Source: a bacterium (GTDB taxonomy: Bacteria > Patescibacteriota > Minisyncoccia > Phycocordibacterales > GWA1-40-21). Taken from it: a stretch of DNA of 64,000 bases. Below, piece by piece: positions 1 to 17,712 of the stretch. The stretch spans positions 1,094-65,093 of the forward strand of contig JBAXQJ010000004.1 of assembly GCA_037131755.1 (NCBI GenBank). The letters run 5' to 3'. How positions within the stretch are numbered: position 1 is the stretch's first letter; each line of letters starts with the position of its first letter. The position numbers and the translations under genes are program-made. The notes under the pieces were generated by a model. That model worked only from the letters and a program-made list of their open reading frames with translations, did no database searches and had not been told where the DNA came from.

Positions 1-521
1 TATTCAAAAATAGTCTTAGAAACTAAATTCCAAAACTTTTGCGAATGATTAAATTCTTTCAGATGACAAAGCTCATGGACAATTATGTAATTAACTAGTT
101 TATCAGGCAACAGAACAATTTTATAATTAAAATTCAGGTTACCTTTTCTTGAACAGCTACCCCAGCGTGTTTTCTGATTCTTAATATTTATTTTGTTAAA
201 TCTAATCTTATAAATCTTATTGAACTTAGCCACTTTCTTCTCGGCTAACTCCTGAGCTTGCTGTTTATACTTTGTATAATCGGCATCAGAATTTTTAGTA
301 ATAAATGTTTTACTAAATGATCCAAAATAATCGAGCTTATCCAATATCCATTGAGATTTTTTTATTATAAACTGTTCAATTGTGTTCACGGCAATATTGG
401 TCGGAGCAGTAACTACAAAATTACCGTCACAATAAATTGCCAGTCTCATTCTTCGAGCTCGGTTGCTTACCTTTATAGTATATTCAACTTTTCTTTTATG
501 TAGCTCGATGTGTTTTTTCAT
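1..521 (-). CDS. DUF45/YgjP-like zinc metallohydrolase (partial; C-terminus runs off window start)
   Basis: Unlisted minus-strand ORF with ATG at 521-519, 3 nt after the hsdR stop. Own translation: MKKHIELHKRKVEYTIKVSNRARRMRLAIY...TRWGSCSRKGNLNFNYKIVLLPDKLVNYIIVHELCHLKEFNHSQKFW. The HELCH...H (HExxH) motif and TRWGSC segment are typical of DUF45 proteins that often sit beside Type I R-M loci. Confidence 0.6.
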   Translation of the reverse strand, partial: MKKHIELHKRKVEYTIKVSNRARRMRLAIYCDGNFVVTAPTNIAVNTIEQFIIKKSQWILDKLDYFGSFSKTFITKNSDADYTKYKQQAQELAEKKVAKFNKIYKIRFNKINIKNQKTRWGSCSRKGNLNFNYKIVLLPDKLVNYIIVHELCHLKEFNHSQKFWNLVSKTIFE

Positions 522-524
522 AAG

Positions 525-3440
525 CTAGAATTTCTTAATGACAATATCAATTAAACGATTAAGATACTTATTAAAATCTGAAACCTTTATTTGATCTTTA
601 TAATCCTTGAGAATTAGTTCTTGAAGTGTCCGCTTGGCTTCCTTTAAAAACTCTTCACGTTTCGATGAATCCTGCCAGCCGTCATCTAAGATGTCGGCTA
701 ATCGTGCCGCCATTTCTTTAATAAATTCTTTAACAATAGTTTCATCGGAGTCGCTAATAAATTCTTCGGACACGACAAATAACCCATACTCACCGAGCGA
801 ATAACCAAGTCCCTTGGCTTCTTCTGCCTTAGTCTTGATATCATTCATTAATTCATAGTAGCGCTTGATTCGTTCTGCTAAATCTATTTGATGTTTTTCA
901 AATTCTTGTCGAATGGCACTTAGTCTTTCACTGAACTTCTTAAAGGCTGGATGTGTATCGATATTAATCGATATCTCTCGCTTAAGCATCTTCTCAAGAT
1001 TAAGTGCCTTTTCGTCTTCGTTCATCTTGTCCAAGCGTTCAAGTGTATATAAATCATTAACCTTTAATTCTCTAAAATTTTTGGTTATGCCTTCATAGTC
1101 AATTTTTTCCTGAATAAGACTTTTAATTTTGCCGCCATATTCTGCCAAAGAAAAAGCATCGACACCGTCATCATCTTGGAACTCTTTTACAAAGGCTAAA
1201 TAAAAACTAGTAACCCACTCAAAAGTACGAATATACTCCATTAAGAATGGATCAGGCGATAGGATTTCGAATAGCATCTTAAGACGTGCGTATTTGTCCT
1301 TAAAAAATTGCTGCTTATTTTGATTATCAATAAAAATCTTGAGACAACGACGCAAATTATCAATTGATGGGTCTTCAATATTTACACCTGTAAATAATTC
1401 CATCACCTCTTCAATTACTTTAACAAATTCCTTTTTAAGACGTTCAATATCGATCATTGCGCTATCAACCACGCTCTCGTCAAAGTTGAGCGCATCATAA
1501 AGATTTTTGGTAACACCATAATAATCGATAATCTTGCCACACCCTTTATTTGGATAAACTCTATTTGTGCGAGCGATTGCCTGCAGTAGATTATGGTCTC
1601 TTAATGGTTTGTCCAAATACATAACCTGCTCAACTGGAGCATCAAATCCAGTCAATAGCATGTCACAAACTAATAAAAATTTAAGTGGGTGGCTTGCATC
1701 TTTAAACTGCTCTATAACCTTCTCTCGTTTTTGCTTATTAGTATTATATTTTTTTAGATCGTCGCTATCGCTATTAGGATCGCCGGGCGAGTAAACAACT
1801 TCTGACCATTCTGCTGGCACTAACTTATCAAGCATCTCCTTGTATTTTGCAGTTGCTTCACGATCGTAACATACAATCTGTGCTTTAAAACCATTCGGCA
1901 AAACATATAACTTGTAATGCTCAACGATATCCTGAATTACCGCTTCCATGCGTTTTTCAAGTTTAACTAAAGCTTCTTTTTTGCCATATTTTTTCATTAG
2001 CAACTCCCTCTGGCTATCATTGAGATCTGCGGTCATTTCCGCAAACTGCTTATCAAGCTTTTCTTCATCAACAAAAAACTTTGACAGCCTTGCTTCGTAG
2101 GTAACTGGTAATGTTGCGCCATCATCAATAGCTTGTTGAATTGAGTAGTAATCTAAATAACGCTCACCCTCTTCACCAAAGTTGCGGTGGGTATTTAATG
2201 TAAGTTTATCAATAGGGGTACCAGTAAAGCCAAAGAAAAAAGCGTTCTTAAACGCATTGCGCATCTTTATCGCAGAAATACCTTCATTATCACGATGAGC
2301 CTCGTCTGAAAGCACAATCACATTGCCTTCGATAGCTTCTACGTCCTGCAATTCATTAAACTTTTGAATAGTGGAAATAAATATACCCCTGTCAGCTCCC
2401 TTAATCTTTTTCTCTAAATCCTTTCGAGATTCAACTCGAATTAAGTTTTGTCCACCCCATGCTTCAAACTCATCAAAAACTTGTTGGTCTAGATCAATGC
2501 GATCAATTAATATAAATACCTTAGGATTTTTTAGCTGTTCATCAAATCGTAATTTCCAAGCAGCAAAAAACATAGTCAGGGTTTTTCCTGATCCTTGCGT
2601 ATGCCAAATTAAACCCTTCATTAATTCGCCATCCTTAACACGGCTAACAATCTTATTGGTAGCATAAAGTTGCTGATATCGAGCAATCTTCTTTGTATAA
2701 CTATCTTTCTTCTTCTCAAATACAATAAAGTTTTTAATAATATCTAAGACCTGAGTTTTGTCTAACAAATAATGTAGAGTTAAATCTAATTCTTCGTCAT
2801 ACTTCTTATTGCCACCGTGCAAATCTTCACGCCAAGTTAAAAAATATTGTTTTGGAGAATATGTTGCACCATAAACAGTTTTCAGTCCGTCCGTAGAGAT
2901 GTTAAAGCAATTAGGTAAAAATAATTTTGGCGCAACCTTTTCATACCGCTTAATCTGATCAATAGCATTTTCAAAATTAACGCTACTTGAGGCGGTGGGG
3001 CTTTTTGCTTCAATATCGCAAATCGGCAAACCATTGATAAAAATCATTACATCTGGTCGAATGTTTTCTGTCACACCCTCAAAGTAAAACTGATTGGTCA
3101 CAATAAATTGATTATTATCAATATTATCAAAATCAATAATCTTATAATCCTTAAACTGTCCAGAAGCAGGGTCTTTTATGTTTATGCCGTTTCTTAAGAC
3201 GAATAAAAATGACTCATTGGTGTCCAATTTCTTTACTTCACGAACTACGCTTTGAGCGATATCGTCGGTCGAATTATTAATTCTCTTAACTGCCTCTAAA
3301 AGATGTGGTGAAATAATATATTCATTTTCAAATATTCTCAGTTTAGAAAATTCATCAGCGCGAATATATTTATAACCGAGATTATCGGCAATAAATTTAA
3401 TTACATGGTTTTCGATCGTATGTTGTTCGTTAAATTTCAT
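525..3440 (-). CDS. hsdR: Type I restriction enzyme R subunit (HsdR)
   Basis: 971 aa; SF2 helicase motifs (HTQGSGKTLTMF Walker A, VLSDEAHRDNEG DEAH box); N-terminal nuclease-like region; adjacent to HsdM/S gene. Confidence 0.85.
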   Translation of the reverse strand: MKFNEQHTIENHVIKFIADNLGYKYIRADEFSKLRIFENEYIISPHLLEAVKRINNSTDDIAQSVVREVKKLDTNESFLFVLRNGINIKDPASGQFKDYKIIDFDNIDNNQFIVTNQFYFEGVTENIRPDVMIFINGLPICDIEAKSPTASSSVNFENAIDQIKRYEKVAPKLFLPNCFNISTDGLKTVYGATYSPKQYFLTWREDLHGGNKKYDEELDLTLHYLLDKTQVLDIIKNFIVFEKKKDSYTKKIARYQQLYATNKIVSRVKDGELMKGLIWHTQGSGKTLTMFFAAWKLRFDEQLKNPKVFILIDRIDLDQQVFDEFEAWGGQNLIRVESRKDLEKKIKGADRGIFISTIQKFNELQDVEAIEGNVIVLSDEAHRDNEGISAIKMRNAFKNAFFFGFTGTPIDKLTLNTHRNFGEEGERYLDYYSIQQAIDDGATLPVTYEARLSKFFVDEEKLDKQFAEMTADLNDSQRELLMKKYGKKEALVKLEKRMEAVIQDIVEHYKLYVLPNGFKAQIVCYDREATAKYKEMLDKLVPAEWSEVVYSPGDPNSDSDDLKKYNTNKQKREKVIEQFKDASHPLKFLLVCDMLLTGFDAPVEQVMYLDKPLRDHNLLQAIARTNRVYPNKGCGKIIDYYGVTKNLYDALNFDESVVDSAMIDIERLKKEFVKVIEEVMELFTGVNIEDPSIDNLRRCLKIFIDNQNKQQFFKDKYARLKMLFEILSPDPFLMEYIRTFEWVTSFYLAFVKEFQDDDGVDAFSLAEYGGKIKSLIQEKIDYEGITKNFRELKVNDLYTLERLDKMNEDEKALNLEKMLKREISINIDTHPAFKKFSERLSAIRQEFEKHQIDLAERIKRYYELMNDIKTKAEEAKGLGYSLGEYGLFVVSEEFISDSDETIVKEFIKEMAARLADILDDGWQDSSKREEFLKEAKRTLQELILKDYKDQIKVSDFNKYLNRLIDIVIKKF

Positions 3441-3460
3441 ATTTTTAGCAGCCTGAAAGA

Positions 3461-5725
3461 TTAGATCTTTTTGTTAAATAAACTATTTATCAATCCTCTT
3501 TTTCTCTGCATATACTTATCTAGCAATTGTTGTCTTAACTCCGCTTCACGCTTTACAGCTTCAAGTATGCTCGCTATTTCTTTTTGTTCATCTTCAGATG
3601 TGGGCAAATACAAGCTTTTTGACAAAAATTTTGTATTTGAAATATTGATAGTATTTTTTGCACCTTTTGATACTATGGTTTGTAGGTAATTATTTGTATT
3701 AATATTAGATTCAAAATACGCATCCAATATTACTCCTATAAAGTAATTTTTCGGCTCAAAAACTCCATACAAAGGAGAAACGATAGCATCCGTAGTAATT
3801 TTGCTTTGTTTAATTATACCGTAAGGGAAATCTCCTGTTGGACTCTTTGTATATATAATATCTCCAGGTCTAACAAGTTTATATTTTGAAGTGTCTTTTG
3901 CTGAATATGATCTGCCCAAATGCTCTATTTGGTTTACGACTCCCTTTTTTACAGATACAGAATGAACCTCTTCTTTTCCTGTGCTGAACAACTTATGTTC
4001 AGTTAAAACATCGCTAAGAAGAGTGTCCTTCCATTTATCCTTAGTAACTTGGCGCTTAGTTAAATCCAGGATACTAGCTTTGTATTTCTTTAGCTCCTCC
4101 TCAATAGAGTTTATTTCATTTTCTAAAGCTTCCAAGTCAACATCGATCTCTTTTTTAGAGGTGTCAACATAGCGCCTAATATCTAAATTAAAATCATTCT
4201 CAATAATTTTATTAAGAGATACTATTTCTGAATAATTTTTTATTGACTCAAATGACTCAAATGTATTAATAATTTTTTTTATATCTGATACACGCAATCT
4301 ATTTTGTTTTTTATCAATCTCAAAACCTTCCTCTGCACTTATTATCAAAATCTTATTCTTTTTTTCGGGAGATTTATTTTTGTTGAGAATAACAATTACA
4401 GCCGGAATTTTTGTTCCATAAAATAACTTTTGTGGCAATGATATAATTCCTTCTATGAGATCATTATTTAGAATAGCCTCCCTAATTTTTCCCTCAGAAC
4501 CGCCACGAAATAATACTCCATGTGGCAAAACAATTCCTGCACGACCATTTTCATTCATAGACTTAATTATATGCAAGATGAAAGCAAAGTCCGCATTTTT
4601 ATCTGGTGGCATTTCATATCCAGCTAGTCTGCCATATTTATTTGTTTTAAATACTTCCCACTCCCAATCTTTAATCGAATAGGGAGGATTTGCAACTACT
4701 ATATCAAAGCTCTGTAGCCCACCATGTTGGTTTAAAAATTGAGGATTAGCCAAGGTGTCGCCTCGACGAATATCAGCACTATCAAGACCATGAAGGAACA
4801 TATTTATACGAGCAATTGCAAAAGTACTTAAATTTACCTCCTGGCCATAGAGATATAAGGTTTTTGCTATTTTTTCACCAGATTTATTTTTTAGATAATC
4901 ATATGCCTCAAGCAAAAACCCACCCGAACCGACTGTTGGGTCGTATATGTGATCTTTCTGGTGTGGCTTTAATATGCCAATAATAACTTTTTCAACTTCT
5001 CTCGGAGTGTAAAATTCACCACCTTTTTTTCCTGCATCTGCTGCAAATTGTTTTATTAGGTATTCATAAGCATCACCAAGCAAATCTGAGCTGATATAGT
5101 TACTTCCAAAATTATATTGCGAAAAATGATTAATAAGTTTCTGCAGAGTTTCGTTTGGAAAGCGATCCTTGTTAGCAAAATCAAGATCGTCAAAAATTTT
5201 GTCGAGTTTAGGACTATTGGCATTGGTTAGCTTTTCAAAAATCTCATTTAGCTTTTGACCGATACCATCAGCTTGTTCTGTGATTACAGTCCAACGACAA
5301 TCTTTAGGAACTTGGAAACGATGATTGTAGTCAGCACGGGCTATATCTTCATTATTATATTCGTCCATTACTTTCTGATATTCTTCATCCCAAACATCGC
5401 TGATACGTTTATAAAACAACAATCCAAAGATATATTTTTTATAATCCGAGCTGTCAATTTTGCCACGCAAGATGTCAGCACTTTTCCAAAGCATTGCCTC
5501 GAGTTGGGGTAGTGTAAGTTGACTACCCATTTTATCAACGATGGCTTCAATGTCTTGTGGGCGATATTTGCGATCACCACGTTTTCCAGCTCTAAGTGGA
5601 ACCAAAATTCCATCCTTTTCCCAATTACGAAGAGTGTCTTGATGAATTGAGAAAATTTCAGCTACCTGACTAATAGAAAGAAGCTCTGGCATGCCTTTTA
5701 ATTTTTCTTGTATGTCTTTGCGCAT
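3461..5725 (-). CDS. hsdM: Type I R-M methyltransferase fused to a single HsdS target-recognition domain, with N-terminal MerR/Xis-like HTH
   Basis: 754 aa. N-terminal LSISQVAEIFSIHQDTLRNWEKDGILVPLR helix-turn-helix; HsdM N-domain (LWKSADILRG...LLFYKRISD); N6-adenine MTase motif VVANPPYS; C-terminal about 230 aa resemble an HsdS TRD plus conserved helix (LVRPGDIIYT...ISNTKFLSKSLYLPTSEDEQKEIASILEAV). Confidence 0.75.
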   Translation of the reverse strand: MRKDIQEKLKGMPELLSISQVAEIFSIHQDTLRNWEKDGILVPLRAGKRGDRKYRPQDIEAIVDKMGSQLTLPQLEAMLWKSADILRGKIDSSDYKKYIFGLLFYKRISDVWDEEYQKVMDEYNNEDIARADYNHRFQVPKDCRWTVITEQADGIGQKLNEIFEKLTNANSPKLDKIFDDLDFANKDRFPNETLQKLINHFSQYNFGSNYISSDLLGDAYEYLIKQFAADAGKKGGEFYTPREVEKVIIGILKPHQKDHIYDPTVGSGGFLLEAYDYLKNKSGEKIAKTLYLYGQEVNLSTFAIARINMFLHGLDSADIRRGDTLANPQFLNQHGGLQSFDIVVANPPYSIKDWEWEVFKTNKYGRLAGYEMPPDKNADFAFILHIIKSMNENGRAGIVLPHGVLFRGGSEGKIREAILNNDLIEGIISLPQKLFYGTKIPAVIVILNKNKSPEKKNKILIISAEEGFEIDKKQNRLRVSDIKKIINTFESFESIKNYSEIVSLNKIIENDFNLDIRRYVDTSKKEIDVDLEALENEINSIEEELKKYKASILDLTKRQVTKDKWKDTLLSDVLTEHKLFSTGKEEVHSVSVKKGVVNQIEHLGRSYSAKDTSKYKLVRPGDIIYTKSPTGDFPYGIIKQSKITTDAIVSPLYGVFEPKNYFIGVILDAYFESNINTNNYLQTIVSKGAKNTINISNTKFLSKSLYLPTSEDEQKEIASILEAVKREAELRQQLLDKYMQRKRGLINSLFNKKI

Positions 5726-5785
5726 ATTTTATGGATTAATAATCTTAATCCTAGTATACATCAAATATTTTGTAAAGTCAATCGT

Positions 5786-5805
5786 TCATAGGTTATCATA
5801 GGTTA
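5786..5805. promoter_or_regulatory. tandem direct repeat tcataggtta x2 in divergent hsdM / recombinase promoter region
   Basis: Perfect 10-bp tandem duplication in the 181-bp intergenic region between divergent genes. Confidence 0.3.
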
Positions 5806-5906
5806 AGATAATTTATCACTATATTTATTATAGTAATATTAGGCATTTTTAAGGGACTTGGGACGCTCTGGACTCTTCTGTAGATATGCGTCATCAATGT
5901 TAGTAT

Positions 5907-7226
5907 ATGAATACAATACAAATGCCCGTAGGGGTGACGAGCAAAATAATCACCCCAGTTAAGGCAAAATACTGCCTTTATGCCCGAAAATCGACCGAAA
6001 GCGAGGAAAGGCAGGTCTTATCAATAGATAGCCAAATTAAGGAGATGCTTGAGCTGGCTGAACGAGAGCAACTGGACATCGTAGAACTCAAAAGAGAGTC
6101 TCACAGCGCTAAAGAGGCTGGACAGCGACCAGTTTTTAATGAAATTATAGCCGAGATAAAGGAGGGTAAATTTAATGCCATTTTGACATGGGCTCCTGAC
6201 CGTATATCAAGAAATGCAGGCGACCTAGGCAAAATTGTGGATTTAATGGATTCTGGTGCCCTGCTTGAGATAAGGACATATGGTCAGAAATTTAGCAATA
6301 ACCCGAACGAGAAGTTTCTGCTCATGATTCTCGGATCACAAGCCAAACTTGAAAACGACAACAGAGGCATTAATGTCAGACGAGGACTAAGGACTAGGGC
6401 TGAGATGGGTTTGTGGGTAGGTCTAGCACCGCTAGGCTATCTGAACCAAAGACGGATGGACAAGAAGTGCCAAGTGGTAGTTGATCCGCTACGTGCGCCA
6501 GCCATCAAGCAGATGTTTGAGAAAATGGCTTACGAAAAGTTTAGTGGGCGAAAATTATTCAACTGGCTCAAACATGATCTAAACTTTTACACCCGAGGCA
6601 ACAAGCCGCTAACGTTGGCTGGTGTTTATAGAATAATAAATAATCCATTCTACTACGGCGTATTTGAGCGACCAGTCGGTAGTGGCAACTGGTATCAAGG
6701 AAAACATAAGCCTCTAATTAGTAAGGACTTATACGACAAAGCACAAGCTCAATTAAAACGAGATCAAATTGTTAGAGAAAATAAAGAGTTTGCATTCACT
6801 AAACTATTCACTTGCGGTTATTGTGGCTCGGGCATATCGGCAGAGGAAAAATACAAACCGCTCAAGGACGGAACACATGCAAGATACATCTACTACTCCT
6901 GTTCGAGGGCACGAGATCGCAATTGCAAGAATAAATACATAAGAGAAGAAGAATTGATTACTGAACTGCTAAAAATATTAGACAAGGTAAATATTAACGA
7001 GCTAGGAATGCGGCAAAAACTGGAAGATGAAATTGCCAGATTCAATATCTTCCAACGATCAGTGCTTGGCGCAACTGATAAAATCAAAACCAACAAAGAA
7101 ATGGATATTAGAAACTATGCTAAATATCTACTCAAAGAGGGAGCGACATCGGATAAGCGAGAGTTGCTCGGAAATTTAAGGTCGAAGATAATGTACAAGG
7201 ATAAAGTATTAACTTTGATTGAATAG
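5907..7226 (+). CDS. large serine recombinase (resolvase/integrase family)
   Basis: 439 aa; N-terminal resolvase catalytic domain (CLYARKSTESEERQVLSIDSQ, catalytic Ser); recombinase domain; Cys-rich zinc ribbon (CGYCGSG...YYSCSRARDRNC). Confidence 0.8.
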   Translation: MNTIQMPVGVTSKIITPVKAKYCLYARKSTESEERQVLSIDSQIKEMLELAEREQLDIVELKRESHSAKEAGQRPVFNEIIAEIKEGKFNAILTWAPDRISRNAGDLGKIVDLMDSGALLEIRTYGQKFSNNPNEKFLLMILGSQAKLENDNRGINVRRGLRTRAEMGLWVGLAPLGYLNQRRMDKKCQVVVDPLRAPAIKQMFEKMAYEKFSGRKLFNWLKHDLNFYTRGNKPLTLAGVYRIINNPFYYGVFERPVGSGNWYQGKHKPLISKDLYDKAQAQLKRDQIVRENKEFAFTKLFTCGYCGSGISAEEKYKPLKDGTHARYIYYSCSRARDRNCKNKYIREEELITELLKILDKVNINELGMRQKLEDEIARFNIFQRSVLGATDKIKTNKEMDIRNYAKYLLKEGATSDKRELLGNLRSKIMYKDKVLTLIE

Positions 7227-7238
7227 CATTTAGCACCA

Positions 7239-8591
7239 TCAATAAGCTTTGAATAGACGGCGAATTAATTTTTTAAAATACCGTTTTAAAGAATTATCTC
7301 TATTTAGATATTTTGAAATAAAATCATTGGCGCTTTTTATTTCCACGCTTTTTAGCCAACTAATTATTTCTTTATTAATTTTGAGTGTTTCTATAGCGTC
7401 TTGATTATTCAACTCCTTGCCTCTATGTATTACTTCATTTCGTATTTTATCGTAATTTGTGCACCATCCATTCCATAGAATCGCACTTTCTTTTGATAAT
7501 TTTTTTTCAGATACTTCGAATACAAGATCTTTTATTCTGTCTTTTGTATTCCATTTTCTATTCAATATTGCTTGAACATCTTCGGGGCTCAACCCCTTTT
7601 TTATATAGGCAGAAAAAAGAAAATTTTCTAAAAATATTTCGAATGCTTGAAAAATTTTAACGACTGCTAAAGTATACGCCTTTTTACTAATAGACGACGC
7701 CCCGTCTAGCAATAATAACTCATACAACAATGGCATCTCGTCATTTTTTAGCATCAACTCAATCGTCTTGAGCATGTTTAACGGTCTATTCATTATCGCA
7801 TCACCTATGCCATACCCCAATGAACTTATATATAGATGATTGTTGTGATCAACAAAATATACGTTATTTATGTTCAAAGAACCTAATCTCTCAACATAAT
7901 CTTCTTGCGTAACATATCTATACACATCCAAAAGCTTATTAATAACCTCGAGTGAAATTTCTGAGATTGTATTAATCACAGAACTAATATTCTTATTTAT
8001 TTCTTCAATCTTAAAGTCAGTATCTATTTGAATAATGACTTTTGTGTATCTGAACGTCCCATTAGCATCTCTTTCTTTTTCAATGTTTTTACCAGTCCAA
8101 TGTTGTTGCCAACCAAGACTTTCATTTATGGGAAATTGGGGACCAGTCAATACCGTATCTTTGAAATAAGTAGTTTTATTTTCAGCTAAATAATCAGCAT
8201 AATCTGAGTCAACTGTTGAAGTAGTCCAGATTTTTTGAAGTCGGACGTTAGCGACATGTTCTTTCCCCTTGTAGTTAATATCAAAATCGTAGTTATTTGG
8301 CACATGTAGACAATATGGCAGAGTCGCTTCAATAATGGTATTACAATCAAATTCTTCTTTCAAAAATGATGGATCAGTCAATTGATAAACTGGCGATGTA
8401 GTTGTGATTATAAACGCCTTTTCTAGGTTTACTTTATTTAAATCATTAGTTAGCAATTGTTTCTGCTGATCTGACGATAATTTTTCAAATTCTTTTTTGT
8501 TAACCAAAACATAAAAATTAACCACCTCCTGTTTATTTTTAAGGTGGGACTTGGCTTGTATTTCTAATAATTGCCAATCTTTTTCAGTCAT
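7239..8591 (-). CDS. hypothetical protein with C-terminal HEPN-like motif (candidate Abi/defence effector)
   Basis: 450-aa ORF with no recognisable enzymatic domain apart from RNEVIHRG (Rx4H) near the C-terminus in a helical region. Sits in the island between the recombinase and tRNA-Ser. Confidence 0.5.
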   Translation of the reverse strand: MTEKDWQLLEIQAKSHLKNKQEVVNFYVLVNKKEFEKLSSDQQKQLLTNDLNKVNLEKAFIITTTSPVYQLTDPSFLKEEFDCNTIIEATLPYCLHVPNNYDFDINYKGKEHVANVRLQKIWTTSTVDSDYADYLAENKTTYFKDTVLTGPQFPINESLGWQQHWTGKNIEKERDANGTFRYTKVIIQIDTDFKIEEINKNISSVINTISEISLEVINKLLDVYRYVTQEDYVERLGSLNINNVYFVDHNNHLYISSLGYGIGDAIMNRPLNMLKTIELMLKNDEMPLLYELLLLDGASSISKKAYTLAVVKIFQAFEIFLENFLFSAYIKKGLSPEDVQAILNRKWNTKDRIKDLVFEVSEKKLSKESAILWNGWCTNYDKIRNEVIHRGKELNNQDAIETLKINKEIISWLKSVEIKSANDFISKYLNRDNSLKRYFKKLIRRLFKAY

Positions 8592-8655
8592 ATGTATATT
8601 ATACCAAAAATGCCCCTAATAGGGGCATTCGGGTCTATCCGATACTAAATTGTAT

Positions 8656-8747
8656 TGGCGGAGACGGCGAGATTCGAACTCGCGGAGCCCTATAAGAGGC
8701 TCACCTCTTTAGCAAAGAGGCACATTAGACCACTCTGACACGTCTCC
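8656..8747 (-). tRNA. tRNA-Ser (anticodon GCU), CCA encoded
   Basis: Manual fold of GGAGACGTGTCAGAGTGGTCTAATGTGCCTCTTTGCTAAAGAGGTGAGCCTCTTATAGGGCTCCGCGAGTTCGAATCTCGCCGTCTCCGCCA: 7-bp acceptor, anticodon loop TTGCTAA, long variable arm, TTCGAAT T-loop. Confidence 0.8.
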
Positions 8748-8794: not shown

Positions 8795-8932
8795 GGTCCT
8801 CTTTAGCAAAGAGGCACATTAGGTCACAAGTTTTTGTCTGCTGACAAAACTCGCGACCCCGACTCGCGCCGTCGCGCTCCGTCTTTGATTTGCTCCACGT
8901 ATTCGCAAAGCAACACCCTGACACGTCTCCAA
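8795..8932 (-). pseudogene. duplicated 5' half of tRNA-Ser interrupted by about 96-bp insertion in the D-loop
   Basis: cctctttagcaaagaggcacattag (8795-8820) and ctgacacgtctcca (8919-8932) are identical to the intact tRNA segments 8705-8749; the 6 nt between them are replaced by about 96 nt. Confidence 0.5.
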
Positions 8933-9098
8933 AAATCATAACAAAATAAGACTATCATATTAAATCCGTTTTTTCTAGTCACGCTCTTAAACAAAGATCT
9001 GACTGATCTCAAGCTGATCTTCTCGGTCCGTCTCTCGCCTATCAGGAAAAACTTAACAAGAAAAACACCCGGTCAAAACCAGGTGCGAAAGCCATTAT

Positions 9099-9485
9099 TT
9101 AATTCTGTTGATTTCTCCGACGAAAGATCTCCTGGCGGACTTCGAGCAATTTAGGCAGAACTTTCTTCCAAACAACCTCTTCATACTCGTAAAAATGGAT
9201 AACCAGCACCGCGACGACCATTCTCGGATGATGATTCTTAAACCTGGTCGCGGCCACCCAACTTGATTTTACCTGCACGTACAGAGAACCGATGTCTCGC
9301 GTTTCCACCACGAGATCAATCCCGCGGGTATCCTCTTCCTTCGTGGCAAATCGCACAGTCTTGAACCAGTCAAGACCATAGGCAAATTTTAATATGGCTT
9401 CAAATGTCCGTTCTTCCGCCTTCTTACCCTTGGCCAATTCGACATGGCCGAGCCGGCGATCGGCAAAAACAGCTTGATTGTTCAT
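9099..9485 (-). CDS. hypothetical protein
   Basis: 128-aa ORF; no confident domain assignment. Confidence 0.45.
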   Translation of the reverse strand: MNNQAVFADRRLGHVELAKGKKAEERTFEAILKFAYGLDWFKTVRFATKEEDTRGIDLVVETRDIGSLYVQVKSSWVAATRFKNHHPRMVVAVLVIHFYEYEEVVWKKVLPKLLEVRQEIFRRRNQQN

Positions 9486-9567
9486 AATCCCCCTTCCTTT
9501 CCTAAGTTTAAATTACCTTAAATTTACCAAAATGTCTAGGGTGAGGAAACTGTGGACCGATTTTATC

Positions 9568-10023
9568 TTACTTCAAATCACCGACATAGTACTGGTCCAA
9601 CAGACTGTTCGCATATGAGGAATGCGGTCGGCCGCCGGGACGGCCTTTGGTGTCAAACGCCACGGTGGCATCCTTTCCGCAATACGAGTCGATGGTGTAA
9701 GTTCCTCCGGGATGATTGATGTCGTAATTGCTCAAATCATAGACTTTGGCGTTTATGATCATCCAGCAATCTGAAGCCGTACTGTGCTTTGCCACTTCAG
9801 CCGCATTCAGGACGACTGTCTTGCCGGAAGTCGGTTTAATTGAAGTTGCAGTTGAGGCACTTCTGGTATTACCGCCGGCTTTCAAATTATTATTTTGATA
9901 AAAAACCAAGCCCGCCGTCAGAATAGCGGTGACAACGCAGAAAAATATGAACAATGATACGCCAGTTAATTTCTTCATTTGATTACAACATGCTAAATTC
10001 TTCAGCGTGAATATTTTTATCAT
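9568..10023 (-). CDS. membrane-anchored cytochrome b5-like heme-binding domain protein
   Basis: N-terminal TM helix; C-terminal DCWMIINAKVYDLSNYDINHPGG...GKDATVAFD matches the cytochrome b5 HPGG heme-binding signature. Overlaps the downstream reductase gene by 41 nt. Confidence 0.6.
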   Translation of the reverse strand: MIKIFTLKNLACCNQMKKLTGVSLFIFFCVVTAILTAGLVFYQNNNLKAGGNTRSASTATSIKPTSGKTVVLNAAEVAKHSTASDCWMIINAKVYDLSNYDINHPGGTYTIDSYCGKDATVAFDTKGRPGGRPHSSYANSLLDQYYVGDLK

Positions 10024-11287
10024 TTACGCCTAGGCTGATAAACTGCTCGGTCAATGATTTCATAAAAGCCGACGGACCGCAAATATAGATTTCTTCCCTG
10101 ATCAGATTACCGCTTTGGGTGGCAATCTCTTTGGCACTTATCCTTCCCTGCTCCTTGGAAATCCACGGCAAAACCCGAAACTTCTTGTTGGCCGACATGA
10201 CCGTCTGAAGCTCCGCCAGCAATACCAACTCTTTCTTTTCCGCCACGCAATAATACAAATCGATATTATGATTTCCCTCTTTCAGACTTCGCGCCATGCT
10301 CAGAAACGGCGTGATGCCGACCCCGCCAGCAATCCAGATTTCTTTTTTATCGCTTTGGCTATCTTCAAAAAAACTGCCGAAAGGTCCCTCGATCATCACC
10401 TTCATGCCGGTACGCATTTTGTCAAAATCGCTGGTAAAATCGCCGAGAGACTTGATCACGAGCTTGATTTTTTCCTCACTGACCGATGAAGAAATGGAAA
10501 AAGGATGCGGTTCGGAACTGATACCGGTGGCGACAAATCGGATATAGATAAACTGGCCGGGACGGAAATCCATCGCTCGTTCATTTGGTTTCAATTCAAG
10601 TTCGACGATTTTGTCGTGCAAAACCCTGACGGCTTTTATCTCATACTCGTAGTCATTATTGAAAAACTTTCGGAAAAAAGAGCGATACGCTCCAGCAAGT
10701 AAGCCCCAGACTGAAAAGAACAAAATATAGTAACGGATAAACAAGTCGCGCGAGATATCGCTAGTGATAAGGAAGGTGTGGACTAGGGCAAAAACAAAAA
10801 CGACGACCATCACCTTGTGCGATATTCGCCAAACATGATACTTAATTTTTACGAAGATGGTCAGGATCAGGAGAATAATCATGAGAGTCAACGCCCAAAT
10901 GCCGGCGTCCATCGCCAAACCATTTCCCGGCAGCAAGAACAGGGCCGCGCTTCTCACCGAAACAGAAACATATTTCACCACCAGAAACAGAGGGTGGAAT
11001 AAGAGCAGAGAAAAAGACAAAGACCCGAGGAATCGATGGGCGCCATAAAAGCGATGCAGACCGCCGAAAATCCGATCAAAGAAAGTTGAACGACTGCTTA
11101 AAATAAGATTGATGGCAAAAATAGTCATACCCAAAAGACCGGCTATTTGCCCAAGACTGGTCATCGTCGTGTTCAGATTCAGAAATCTCAGAGACAACGG
11201 TTCAAGGAAAAACCAACGGGCAATCGGGACCAGACATAGGACTGCCAAGACGGCAGTCGGAAGACTTTTTGATTTAATCAATTTCAT
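9983..11287 (-). CDS. ferric reductase / NOX-like transmembrane flavocytochrome (FRD TM domain + FAD + NAD(P) binding)
   Basis: 434 aa; about 6 TM helices with paired His (GLHRFYGAHRF; YHVWRISHKV...LVHTF); FAD-binding HPFSISSS motif; NAD-binding GGVGITPF motif. Confidence 0.7.
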   Translation of the reverse strand: MKLIKSKSLPTAVLAVLCLVPIARWFFLEPLSLRFLNLNTTMTSLGQIAGLLGMTIFAINLILSSRSTFFDRIFGGLHRFYGAHRFLGSLSFSLLLFHPLFLVVKYVSVSVRSAALFLLPGNGLAMDAGIWALTLMIILLILTIFVKIKYHVWRISHKVMVVVFVFALVHTFLITSDISRDLFIRYYILFFSVWGLLAGAYRSFFRKFFNNDYEYEIKAVRVLHDKIVELELKPNERAMDFRPGQFIYIRFVATGISSEPHPFSISSSVSEEKIKLVIKSLGDFTSDFDKMRTGMKVMIEGPFGSFFEDSQSDKKEIWIAGGVGITPFLSMARSLKEGNHNIDLYYCVAEKKELVLLAELQTVMSANKKFRVLPWISKEQGRISAKEIATQSGNLIREEIYICGPSAFMKSLTEQFISLGVNDKNIHAEEFSML

Positions 11288-14288: not shown

Positions 14289-14361
14289 GCGCGTGTAGCT
14301 CAGTTGGTAGAGCGGTCGTCTTATACACGACTGGTCCCAGGTTCGAATCCTGGCACGCGCA
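14289..14361 (+). tRNA. tRNA-Ile (anticodon UAU)
   Basis: Manual cloverleaf of GCGCGTGTAGCTCAGTTGGTAGAGCGGTCGTCTTATACACGACTGGTCCCAGGTTCGAATCCTGGCACGCGCA: perfect 7-bp acceptor, 5-bp anticodon stem GTCGT/ACGAC, loop CTTATAC (U33, anticodon TAT, A37), discriminator A, no encoded CCA. Confidence 0.75.
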
Positions 14362-14476
14362 CAAACTAAAGCCGGGTTTTCATCAGATGAAAACCCGGCT
14401 GAGTATTTTATATGATTGGTCGCCAAGGTCTCACCTTTCCCGTCGCCGACTCCTCCCCAAGGAGAGACCTTGTCGC

Positions 14477-17055: not shown

Positions 17056-17473
17056 GGGGATGCATGTTTTGACAAAAAACCAAACCCTTTCGTGCAAAGC
17101 AGAGCTCCAACAACTCTTTAAAAGGTTGGAAATTGTAATTGCAAACACATTAGTTGCAAAGGCAAAGTCTCTTGTTTCTCCATATTTTGGAGTACAGGAT
17201 CTTGCTTTCGCCTACGTTGCTTAATCTTTTTAGATTAGCCTAGGCGGCGTCTCTCTCGCCTATTTCGCGGAGACGGGACGAGGCGTAATATACGCGAATA
17301 TATTTTGCAGTAGTCTCGACTGCAAACCGAGAACAAGAGAATCGGCTTATGATCATTTTTCTGATTTTGAAATCATAAGCTAAAATCCGTCACAAGACGG
17401 GACTAAATCAGATACGCTTTGTAGACTCGTCTGTGTTAATTTTTTGGACGCGGTTTCAATACCGCCATCTCCA
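17056..17473 (+). ncRNA. ssrA: putative tmRNA (SsrA)
   Basis: Begins GGGGATGCATGTTTTGAC (tmRNA-like 5' end) downstream of smpB. The 3' end CATCTCC-A can pair with 5' GGGGATG (one G-U) to form a tRNA-like acceptor, preceded by a T-arm-like GCGGTTTCAATACCGC. An internal ORF ends ...DLAFAYVA-TAA at 17222-17224. Not covariance-model verified. Confidence 0.5.
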
Positions 17474-17712
17474 CACTTTCAAAAATCCGCTCATTCTGAT
17501 GGGCGATTTTTGTTGTGTGGATATGAGCAAGCAAACTGCTTTGCTTGCGGGCGGTATTGAAAAGATTGGCGCTGTTTTGTCGGCAAAACCGCCAATCACG
17601 CGCCGTGGGCGGCAATTACCGCCATGTTTCTCAAACCCATTGACGAAACAACTGGAATGTGATAATTTTTTGACTGGAGTTTAAACCAAAAAAGTTAGAG
17701 AGGAATTGATAA

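What the first reader, a model, noticed from the sequence alone, without database searches (positions are those of the whole stretch)
1..8747. Defence/mobility island at tRNA-Ser: DUF45, HsdR, fused HsdM-S, serine recombinase, HEPN-like gene
A Type I R-M system with a non-canonical subunit architecture sits next to a large serine recombinase and an uncharacterised 450-aa protein, abutting tRNA-Ser(GCU). A fragment duplicating the tRNA 5' half lies beyond the tRNA. The layout is consistent with an integrated mobile defence island.
Basis: partly seen in the sequence, partly recalled or inferred. Interest (0 to 1): 0.6.

Follow-up and report, generated by a model that had tools for sequence, protein, structure and literature searches.

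The report
Serine-recombinase defence island at tRNA-Ser
A 16.5-kb phage-derived island carrying several anti-phage systems sits at the last bases of a tRNA-Ser gene in an ultra-small (Patescibacteria) bacterium, probably inserted by a serine recombinase; it is a well-resolved but fairly ordinary defence island with a few unusual parts.

Summary
Window 1-8657 is the tRNA-proximal half of a 16,450-bp island (GC 0.35 against 0.45). The island runs 7.8 kb past the window's left edge. Two metagenome contigs from a close relative are empty sites and fix both junctions. The island sits at the last bases of tRNA-Ser(GCU), and the junctions share only CCGC. That fits a serine-recombinase crossover, not a tyrosine integrase.

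Homologs of the 439-aa large serine recombinase lie beside the 3' end of a tRNA-Ser gene in about ten other loci. A conserved element-side arm (GACAATTTWKTATCGG) is present in the closest ones. The backbone (ParB-methyltransferase, small-terminase-like gene, recombinase) matches predicted viral contigs, but defence genes occupy the large-terminase position.

The cargo comprises:
- a Type I R-M system whose M subunit carries a MerR HTH and one half-S domain (rare in nature, engineered before);
- YgjP/DUF45;
- a HamB helicase with a probable HamA;
- a 450-aa protein with a confirmed C-terminal HEPN domain and an unmatched N-terminal domain.

The "tRNA 5' fragment" is real, predates the island, and contains a copy of an undescribed ~110-nt structured element. 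That element normally trails tRNA/tmRNA genes in this clade.

The parts
1..521 (-). YgjP/DUF45-like metallopeptidase gene (first 173 of 189 codons; the rest lies beyond the window edge). It contains the HELCH motif and immediately follows hsdR.
   Evidence: translation; PF01863, 2e-43 on the full protein from L001; the same HsdR-YgjP pairing occurs in L077, L079, L032 and L154.
525..3440 (-). HsdR, Type I restriction subunit (971 aa)
   Evidence: HSDR_N, SWI2_SNF2, T1R_D3-like, T1RH-like_C; PADLOC REase_I 1.9e-129.
3461..5725 (-). Fusion protein of 754 aa: MerR-type HTH (about aa 15-65), HsdM (about aa 75-530) and a half-HsdS (one TRD plus one conserved helix, about aa 540-754 = window 3464-4108)
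   Evidence: Fused 750-775-aa homologs are rare among thousands of 560-580-aa MerR-HsdM proteins. No separate hsdS ORF.
5907..7226 (+). Large serine recombinase (439 aa), the inferred integrase; convergent with the tRNA
   Evidence: Resolvase, Recombinase, Zn_ribbon_recom; PHROG integrase 1e-60; SPbeta YokA/SprA, TP901-1 integrase. Homologs lie beside tRNA-Ser in L079, L061, L042, L069, L009, L149, L150 and L153.
7239..8591 (-). p450: a 450-aa protein with an N-terminal domain of unknown fold and a C-terminal HEPN domain (about aa 290-415 = window 7347-7724; RNEVIH at aa 384-389). It sits in the variable cargo slot between the recombinase and the att site.
8609..8629 (-). Island-borne terminator-like hairpin (AATGCCCCTATTAGGGGCATT) that now follows the tRNA
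   Evidence: self-complementary match; absent from the empty site.
8630..8657 (-). Element-side arm of attL (P' arm: CAATACAATTTAGTATCGGATAGACCCG on the tRNA strand). Its first two bases complete an encoded CCA end.
   Evidence: the motif GACAATTTWKTATCGG abuts tRNA-Ser only in loci carrying close LSR homologs; junction comparison.
8658..8661 (-). CCGC, the only sequence shared by both island junctions; the crossover lies within it
   Evidence: attL, attR and the empty attB compared.
8656..8747 (-). tRNA-Ser(GCU), a core gene; its 3' end forms the host arm of the attachment site
   Evidence: conserved upstream of RecG across the clade.
8798..8935 (-). Pseudo-tRNA-Ser 5' fragment (nt 1-17 and 18-44) interrupted by a copy of a conserved structured element (model hit at 8811-8898). 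Host DNA, older than the island.
   Evidence: 67.7 bits; 82.6% conserved in the island-free relative L147/L148.

Best explanation
Window 1-8657 is the tRNA-proximal half of a 16,450-bp integrative element. The element derives from a Patescibacteria phage-like element. Its own large serine recombinase inserted it at an attB that spans the last bases of tRNA-Ser(GCU) and the terminator behind it.

Shown: both junctions are defined against an empty site. They share only CCGC. The tRNA stays intact, and the element supplies the final CA of an encoded CCA.

Shown: the element family has a backbone of ParB-methyltransferase, small-terminase-like protein, large terminase and recombinase, followed by the att site.

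Inferred: in this copy the large terminase has been replaced by a 10-kb low-GC block in opposite orientation. The block is p141, HamB, probable HamA, YgjP, HsdR and HsdM-half-S. A further cargo gene (p450) occupies the slot between the recombinase and the att site. The element is therefore now a fixed or only excisable defence island, not a functional prophage.

Inferred mechanism of the cargo:
- The HTH-HsdM-half-S protein dimerises. Two single TRDs then read a symmetric bipartite site. The dimer methylates that site and, together with HsdR, restricts unmodified DNA.
- HamB and HamA act as a Hachiman helicase-nuclease.
- p450 is a stand-alone HEPN RNase. Its N-terminal domain would sense infection and release abortive RNA cleavage.
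For: Island and boundaries:
- GC is 0.35 against 0.45.
- The window is 100% identical to L001, which extends the island.
- Empty-site contigs L147 and L148 from a close relative show the tRNA followed directly by the sequence found at L001 16506 onward. The junctions were read to the base.
- No island protein is detected in L147/L148 or beside the tRNA in 70 RecG-anchored loci.

Recombinase:
- It has all three LSR domains.
- Homologs of 35-82% identity are convergent with and adjacent to a tRNA-Ser 3' end in L079, L061, L042, L069 and L009. Homologs of 74-80% identity do the same in viral contigs L149, L150 and L153.
- A conserved P' arm is present in six junctions even though the tRNA sequences differ.
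- The 4-nt shared core fits a serine rather than a tyrosine recombinase.
- No Phage_integrase match was returned for any island protein scanned against Pfam.

Phage origin:
- TerL was identified by PHROGs next to the LSR in L149, L151, L152 and L155, and in L077 and L032.
- ParB-MTase homologs reach 62-65% identity.
- Backbone genes are 0.39-0.42 GC and cargo genes 0.29-0.35.

R-M system:
- The unfused version of the same system sits next to the same LSR in L154.
- An engineered M-half-S fusion is active with HsdR (PMC6158711).

Other cargo:
- HamB: PADLOC 1e-69 and PDB HamB chains.
- p450. Its homologs are stand-alone genes in defence or mobile contexts.
Against: - No excised circle or population-level empty site from the same strain was found. 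The reconstructed attP is absent from viral contigs, so current mobility is unproven.
- No recombination directionality factor was identified.
- The flank beyond the far junction (an SSF symporter, GC 0.33) is not syntenic with the relatives' flank. A further rearrangement or a second insertion may lie there.
- HamA rests on a precomputed Pfam entry. hmmscan did not reproduce it even at E <= 10, nor did PADLOC or PDB sequence search.
- No activity of the R-M system or of p450 was tested.
- The empty sites come from a related species (RecG 73% identical), not from the same species.
Confidence: 0.82

Rival explanations
1. The region is an intact, inducible prophage, and the defence genes are ordinary prophage morons.
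For: Close LSR homologs occur on IMG/VR viral contigs with TerS-like, TerL and ParB-MTase genes. The island keeps the TerS-like gene and ParB-MTase.
Against: The 16.45 kb contains no large terminase, portal, capsid, tail or lysis gene. The TerL position is occupied by R-M and Hachiman genes. The size is too small for a tailed phage.
Confidence: 0.07
2. The recombinase is not the integrase. It is an invertase controlling phase variation of the adjacent Type I R-M specificity gene, and the island arrived by another route.
For: The LSR is divergently adjacent to the hsdM-S gene here and in L079. Recombinase-driven hsdS shufflons are well known (PMC7672463, listed).
Against: There are no extra hsdS copies and no inverted repeats within or around the TRD. 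The protein has the Recombinase and zinc-ribbon domains of integrases. The same LSR clade sits next to tRNA-Ser with entirely different cargo. The junction is exactly where the LSR-proximal arm is conserved.
Confidence: 0.03
3. The block is ancestral, and relatives lost it by deletion (differential loss rather than insertion).
For: Only species-level relatives are available. The closest share 73% RecG identity.
Against: GC is lower by 10 points. The break falls precisely at the tRNA end, with a recombinase and a conserved element arm. The same LSR-R-M module is found at tRNA-Ser in another genome (L079) and elsewhere (L077, L154). The tRNA-terminator-trailing-element layout is contiguous in at least 10 species.
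Confidence: 0.03
4. A tyrosine integrase or other mechanism created the island at the tRNA. The duplicated tRNA pieces are its att scars.
For: tRNA 3' ends are the classic tyrosine-integrase target. Partial tRNA copies lie near both ends.
Against: The island has no tyrosine integrase. The junctions share 4 nt, not a 15-50-nt repeat. The 13-nt tRNA-like repeats at the far end are the arms of a conserved host element also present at empty sites. The 5' fragment is conserved in the island-free relative.
Confidence: 0.03

Closest known systems
Large-serine-recombinase integrative elements (SPbeta SprA/YokA, TP901-1, phiC31, Bxb1 prophages; SCCmec CcrAB at the 3' end of rlmH)
   Same: Three-domain recombinase (NCBIfam CcrB-like 9e-39, below cut-off). 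The int gene lies next to one att site. The crossover core is very short, so there is no long direct repeat. Insertion at the extreme 3' end of a conserved gene leaves that gene functional.
   Different: The target is a tRNA gene end. Mageeney et al. 2020 (PMC7192596) state that S-Ints were not known to target tRNA genes (4.9% of their S-Int elements, unproven). The host is a Patescibacterium, and no RDF was identified.
tRNA-linked genomic/defence islands made by tyrosine integrases (P4-like, Islander-type)
   Same: Low-GC accessory block abutting a tRNA 3' end; integrase at the tRNA-proximal end; defence cargo; the tRNA is preserved.
   Different: There is no tyrosine integrase and no displaced tRNA fragment as a direct repeat. 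Only CCGC is shared.
Engineered HsdM-half-HsdS fusion of the S. aureus CC398-1 Type I system (Bower et al. 2018, PMC6158711) and half-S Type I variants
   Same: The domain order M then one TRD with one helix is the same. The engineered protein dimerised, methylated a symmetric site, and restricted with HsdR.
   Different: This one is natural, carries an extra N-terminal MerR HTH, and is untested. Its closest relatives are mostly unfused (L154 has M plus a two-TRD S).
Stand-alone HEPN abortive-infection proteins (AbiV, AbiU2, Apea-type HEPN, HepS) and HEPN toxins
   Same: C-terminal HEPN fold with an RNxxxH motif; single gene in defence or mobile contexts. Two family members carry precomputed HEPN Pfam hits, PF18739 and PF18734.
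   Different: The ~280-aa N-terminal domain has no detectable sequence or structural relative. There is no adjacent MNT or antitoxin gene. p450 itself has no Pfam or PADLOC hit.
Genomic island with a full Type I R-M system in Paceibacteria MAG nzgw456 (PMC12455944)
   Same: Same host class and the same kind of cargo, acquired horizontally.
   Different: That report gives no integrase, att site or junctions and describes separate R, M and S subunits. Here the mechanism and boundaries are resolved and S is fused.

Membership tests
Integrated genomic (defence) island | Present in one genome and absent at the same site in relatives (empty site) | tested here: met
   In L147/L148 the tRNA is followed directly by the far-flank sequence, and no island proteins are found. 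70 RecG-anchored loci were also checked.
Integrated genomic (defence) island | Deviant base composition | tested here: met
   GC 0.35 against 0.45; cargo genes 0.29-0.35.
Integrated genomic (defence) island | Own integrase next to one boundary | tested here: met
   The LSR lies 1.4 kb from attL. In L079 and L061 it lies 100-160 nt from the tRNA.
Integrated genomic (defence) island | Current excision or mobility | not testable with these tools
   No read data. The reconstructed attP is not found in viral contigs.
Large serine recombinase (serine integrase) | Resolvase catalytic domain with the YxRxS serine, plus a Recombinase domain and a zinc ribbon | tested here: met
   The sequence YARKST occurs at aa 25-30. 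The 439-aa start is supported by the 441-aa L079 orthologue.
Large serine recombinase (serine integrase) | att sites with a minimal (about 2-bp) crossover and no long repeat | tested here: met
   attL and attR share only CCGC.
Large serine recombinase (serine integrase) | Catalyses attP x attB recombination | not testable with these tools
   Needs an in vitro or in vivo assay.
Type I restriction-modification system | HsdR with a nuclease and an SF2 motor | tested here: met
Type I restriction-modification system | HsdM gamma-class N6-adenine methyltransferase | tested here: met
   PF02384 1e-107, HsdM_N, TIGR00497 above cut-off.
Type I restriction-modification system | Separate HsdS with two TRDs | tested here: not met
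   A single TRD plus one helix is fused to HsdM, and there is no other hsdS ORF. The architecture is non-canonical, but an engineered equivalent is active.
HEPN superfamily | Rx4-6H motif conserved across the family | tested here: met
   R384, N385 and H389 are at least 90% conserved in 33 sequences.
HEPN superfamily | Four-helix HEPN fold | tested here: met
HEPN superfamily | RNase activity | not testable with these tools
   Biochemistry needed.
HEPN-MNT toxin-antitoxin | Adjacent MNT nucleotidyltransferase partner | tested here: not met
   There is no such gene next to p450 or next to its homologs.
Hachiman (HamAB) | HamB Ski2/Hel308-like helicase | tested here: met
   PADLOC HamB 1e-69; PDB HamB chains 8zue_B and 8vx9_B. 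The gene lies outside the window, at L001 9571-12039.
Hachiman (HamAB) | HamA (DUF1837) nuclease encoded immediately upstream | tested here: inconclusive
   A 267-aa gene abuts hamB, and a precomputed table lists PF08878. However, hmmscan, PADLOC and PDB searches give nothing.
Functional prophage | Large terminase and structural or lysis genes | tested here: not met
   Only the TerS-like and ParB-MTase genes remain. TerL is present in relatives.

The most novel reading that the evidence does not exclude
Two linked readings remain open.

(1) This recombinase clade would be the first clearly resolved family of serine integrases dedicated to tRNA gene ends. It uses tRNA-Ser GCU and UGA, and it mobilises phage-derived defence islands through genome-reduced Patescibacteria.

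(2) The ~110-nt element found at the far junction and inside the pseudo-tRNA would be a new class of structured RNA. It is a three-way junction closed by arms that copy the neighbouring tRNA's 3' end. It would be co-transcribed with tRNA-Ser, tRNA-Ile and tmRNA genes in this clade.
Probability: 0.4. Interest if true: 0.7.

Novelty: new variant of a known kind. Interest (0 to 1): 0.48.

Why it matters
Patescibacteria have tiny genomes and mostly lack CRISPR. How they acquire and exchange defence is therefore an open practical question.

This locus gives a base-resolved example of the vehicle. It is a phage-derived element whose serine integrase targets the end of a tRNA-Ser gene. That target class was reported as essentially unknown for serine integrases (PMC7192596). 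The element has two cargo slots that hold different defence genes in different genomes.

The locus also yields three testable items:
- a compact site-specific integrase with a defined ~50-bp attB/attP pair;
- a natural minimal Type I enzyme (R plus an M-half-S fusion) predicted to read a symmetric site;
- a new HEPN family with an unknown sensor domain.

None of these overturns current understanding. They are useful additions rather than surprises.

Tried and rejected
1. I first read the stretch at L001 16546-16700 as a degenerate inverted tRNA-Ser pseudogene, and the 13-nt TCTCGCCGTCTCC as a classic attR direct repeat. This was rejected. It is a diverged copy of a host element whose arms mimic the tRNA 3' end, and the element is also present at empty sites.

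2. I then took the conserved sequence after the tRNA plus the small element to be a permuted attP 'mini-island' (L012). The L148 empty site shows that the crossover is at CCGC and that the small element is host DNA.

3. The small element as a phage attP was rejected. The 15-mer hits in viral contigs are at chance level, and only 1 weak model hit was found in 65 loci.

4. A group I intron or a known RNA family was rejected. Rfam returned nothing at E <= 10, and the Patescibacteria tRNA intron paper concerns anticodon-loop introns.

5. An hsdS shufflon was rejected because there are no repeats.

6. The first metagenome scan with a host-side 30-mer found nothing; the second, with the tRNA variable arm, succeeded.

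7. Searches for the N-terminal domain of p450 gave nothing significant: Foldseek against the PDB and BFVD. The afdb50 library was unavailable.

8. HamA confirmation failed.

9. The conserved flank of relatives (a pilus/secretion-like array) was sought in the window. Only 30-40% paralogs at 59.6-62.5 kb were found.


Full report
OBSERVATION.
- On the minus strand lie a YgjP/DUF45 gene (1-521, truncated by the window edge), hsdR (525-3440) and a 754-aa hsdM with a C-terminal specificity domain (3461-5725).
- A large serine recombinase (LSR) lies on the plus strand (5907-7226).
- A 450-aa ORF (7239-8591) and tRNA-Ser(GCU) (8656-8747) lie on the minus strand.
- GC falls from about 0.45 to 0.31-0.38 left of position 8650.
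- Partial copies of the tRNA 5' region lie upstream of the tRNA (8798-8827 and 8914-8935, 91-93% identical).

THE ISLAND IS LARGER THAN THE WINDOW. A look-up of the HsdR protein returned an NCBI MAG contig (L001). It is 100% identical to the window over 8712 nt and continues past the window's left edge. The continuation holds:
- the rest of YgjP;
- a 267-aa gene listed as HamA in a precomputed table;
- an 822-aa HamB helicase (PADLOC 1e-69; PDB HamB chains);
- a 141-aa ORF;
- a small-terminase-like HTH protein;
- a ParB-N6/N4 methyltransferase;
- a 363-aa ORF;
- an intergenic region, and then a sodium:solute symporter gene.

I could not reproduce the HamA assignment by hmmscan, PADLOC or PDB sequence search. 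Hachiman is therefore 'HamB certain, HamA probable'.

HOST AND SYNTENY. RecG, 3 kb from the tRNA, retrieved 72 loci from species-representative genomes. Nearly all are Patescibacteria of the Paceibacteria/Parcubacteria group, and the best share 73% identity. The order tRNA-Ser(GCU) ... RecG - tRNA-Ile(UAU) - tmRNA is conserved across them, so the tRNA is core. tblastn of all island proteins against these loci found no p450, HsdM-S, HamA or HamB. LSR homologs did appear next to the 3' side of tRNA-Ser(GCU) in L042, L069, L061, L009 and L018.

EMPTY SITE AND JUNCTIONS. A metagenome scan with the tRNA's variable arm returned two JGI contigs from a close relative (L147, L148). They are 82.6% identical over the 316 nt that include the tRNA and its upstream region. 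In these contigs the tRNA is followed directly by sequence homologous to L001 16502-16693. No island protein is detectable. Comparing the three sequences gives:
- attB: ...CGCCGTCTCCGC|ATTTTAAAAAAGCAC...
- attL: ...CGCCGTCTCCGC|CAATACAATTTAGTATCGG...
- attR: ...CTCAGCTAGCCCGC|ATTTTAAAAAACACC...

The island is L001 56-16505, which is 16,450 bp at GC 0.35. In window coordinates it ends at 8657. The two junctions share only CCGC. The element contributes the CA that completes an encoded CCA end.

A 4-nt shared core with no displaced tRNA fragment is expected for a serine recombinase. It is not expected for the tyrosine integrases that usually exploit tRNA genes.

THE RECOMBINASE IS THE LIKELY INTEGRASE. 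It has the Resolvase, Recombinase and zinc-ribbon domains. It matches a PHROG integrase family at 1e-60 and solved serine integrases (SPbeta YokA/SprA, TP901-1).
- An 82%-identical orthologue in L079 lies 104 nt from tRNA-Ser(GCU). It is followed by the same HsdM-S ... HsdR - YgjP module.
- Seven IMG/VR contigs encode 59-80% identical LSRs. In three of them (74-80% identical) the LSR is followed by one variable gene and then tRNA-Ser(UGA).
- Six junctions share an element-side arm, GACAATTTWKTATCGG, placed 4-5 nt after CCGC/CCGG, although the tRNA sequences differ.
- Mageeney et al. 2020 reported that serine integrases were not known to target tRNA genes. They found such use in only 4.9% of S-Int elements and called for experimental proof (PMC7192596).

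This clade is therefore a rare and now well-documented case. Activity itself is inferred, not shown.

ORIGIN AND ARCHITECTURE OF THE ELEMENT. In L149, L151, L152 and L155 the order is ParB-MTase, TerS-like protein, TerL (PHROG large terminase), LSR. L077 and L032 also combine TerL, the TerS-like gene and ParB-MTase with the HsdR-YgjP module.

In the window's island, ParB-MTase and the TerS-like gene remain. The TerL position, however, is filled by the block p141-HamB-HamA-YgjP-HsdR-HsdM-S in the opposite orientation. Backbone genes have GC 0.39-0.42 and cargo genes 0.29-0.35. I infer a phage-derived element that lost packaging and structural functions and accumulated defence cargo.

The slot between the LSR and the att site holds a different gene in each element:
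- p450 here;
- a Type II R-M pair in L069;
- a 907-aa SF1 helicase in L150;
- a DUF218 protein in L151;
- a WG-repeat protein in L042.

THE TYPE I SYSTEM. The M protein belongs to a very large family of MerR-HTH-HsdM proteins of 560-580 aa that are about 80% identical across phyla. The 750-775-aa fused form is a recurrent minority. Its last 215 aa align to either half of M. jannaschii HsdS, that is, one TRD plus one conserved helix (PADLOC Specificity_I 3e-31). There is no other hsdS gene.
- L154 shows the same system (HsdR 83%, HsdM 80% identical) with a separate two-TRD HsdS next to a 72%-identical LSR.
- L150 has a free half-S.
- Bower et al. 2018 engineered an HsdM-half-HsdS fusion that dimerised, methylated and restricted with HsdR (PMC6158711).

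By analogy the natural protein should recognise a symmetric bipartite site. This is an inference.

THE 450-aa PROTEIN. It has no Pfam, NCBIfam or PADLOC hit. A database search found 33 homologs at 33-49% identity. An exhaustive profile search found 81 cluster representatives below 1e-30.
- R384, N385 and H389 (RNEVIH), and the FQALEIFLE helix, are nearly invariant.
- The N-terminal ~280 aa have conserved residues but no structural match.
- Homologs are stand-alone genes. They lie among TIR/PIN/OLD genes (L075), among GmrSD/Eco57I/T5orf172/PDDEXK genes (L146), and in elements with an LSR (L076, the P0008 contig).

The best reading is a single-protein HEPN RNase defence or abortive-infection factor (my estimate about 0.55). 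No antitoxin-like partner is present.

THE tRNA FRAGMENT AND AN UNEXPECTED ELEMENT. The 86 nt that interrupt the pseudo-tRNA are a copy of a conserved element. Its layout is AAAGRCGGAG, hairpin, CGAGYCGGGGTCGCG, hairpin, YGUGACC.
- A covariance model built from nine copies found 45 copies in 1.2 Mb of related loci.
- About 28 of the 39 best-scoring copies lie 29-100 nt downstream, on the same strand, of tRNA-Ser(GCU), tRNA-Ser(ACU), tRNA-Ile(UAU) or tmRNA genes.
- The outer arms are an inverted copy and a direct copy of the neighbouring tRNA's own 3' end.
- The fold is well supported. 94% of cells are paired, against 71% in shuffles and 31-39% when partners are slid, and 18 of 20 pairs show compensatory changes. 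A conserved G-U pair favours an RNA on the tRNA strand. One caveat is that the alignment was fitted to the model.
- Rfam has no match, and the element is not on viral contigs.
- In this genome the trailing copy lies at L001 16576-16686 (24.9 bits, diverged core), now separated from its tRNA by the island.
- The pseudo-tRNA with its embedded copy is conserved in the island-free relative. It therefore predates the island and is not an integration scar.

What this element does is unknown.

VERDICT. The result is a base-resolved, LSR-associated, phage-derived defence island in a Patescibacterium.

A genomic island with Type I R-M in Paceibacteria has already been reported (PMC12455944). The kind is therefore known. 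The variant features are the serine integrase targeting tRNA-Ser ends, the natural M-half-S fusion and the new HEPN family. Interest is moderate.

Noticed in passing
window 8811-8898 (-); L001 16576-16686 (+); 43 further copies in L005-L072: An undescribed ~110-nt structured element: a three-way junction with invariant GAGYCGGGGUCGCG and YGUGACC. Its arms copy the adjacent tRNA's 3' end. It usually lies 29-100 nt downstream of tRNA-Ser, tRNA-Ile(UAU) or tmRNA genes on the same strand. Covariation is strong, there is no Rfam match, and it is absent from viral contigs.
   Followed up: partly
L009 8801-8888, L011 6577-6664, L013 7770-7855 and nine other related loci: Many relatives carry a second class II tRNA next to tRNA-Ser(GCU), with a conserved UUACUAA anticodon loop (anticodon ACU). 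An A34 tRNA-Ser is unusual in bacteria. None is present in this window.
   Followed up: no
window 14289-14362 (+): tRNA-Ile with a UAU anticodon lies immediately downstream of recG. It is conserved at this position across the clade. This suggests AUA decoding without the usual lysidine-modified CAU tRNA.
   Followed up: no
window 9099-11287 (-): The ferric-reductase-like gene, the cytochrome b5 gene and a 128-aa ORF (weak DUF4365 hit) lie between the pseudo-tRNA and mgtC. In the nearest relatives (L003, L004, L147, L148) mgtC sits next to the tRNA region. This is a second variable segment, with host-like GC.
   Followed up: partly
L001 position 1 = window 8712: The NCBI MAG contig ends inside the tRNA anticodon region, exactly where the 25-30-nt repeat shared with the pseudo-tRNA (8704-8733 and 8798-8827) begins. 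The repeat probably broke that assembly.
   Followed up: no
L001 16807-18156 (beyond the window's left edge): The gene after the island's far junction is a sodium:solute symporter with GC 0.33. It has no counterpart in the relatives' flank, where a conserved pilus/secretion-like array follows. This may be another insertion or a rearrangement.
   Followed up: partly
L003 versus L004, and other loci: The orientation of tRNA-Ser(GCU) relative to mgtC/recG flips between closely related genomes. The relative orientation of the GCU and ACU tRNA-Ser genes also varies (divergent or tandem). This indicates recurrent local inversions at this locus.
   Followed up: no
window 3461-5725 homologs: MerR-HTH-HsdM proteins about 80% identical to this one occur in Patescibacteria, Bacteroidales and Methanoregula MAGs. 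This points to very wide recent horizontal spread of this Type I family, or to some mis-binning.
   Followed up: no
L154 9358-10617 (-) and 7947-9323 (+): One viral contig carries two convergent LSR genes (72% and 55% identical to the window's LSR) side by side. This suggests tandem or nested elements at one site.
   Followed up: no
window 17056-17474 (+): A tmRNA gene with the tag AKAKSLVSPYFGVQDLAFAYVA. In this genome it lacks the trailing structured element that follows tmRNA in several relatives.
   Followed up: no
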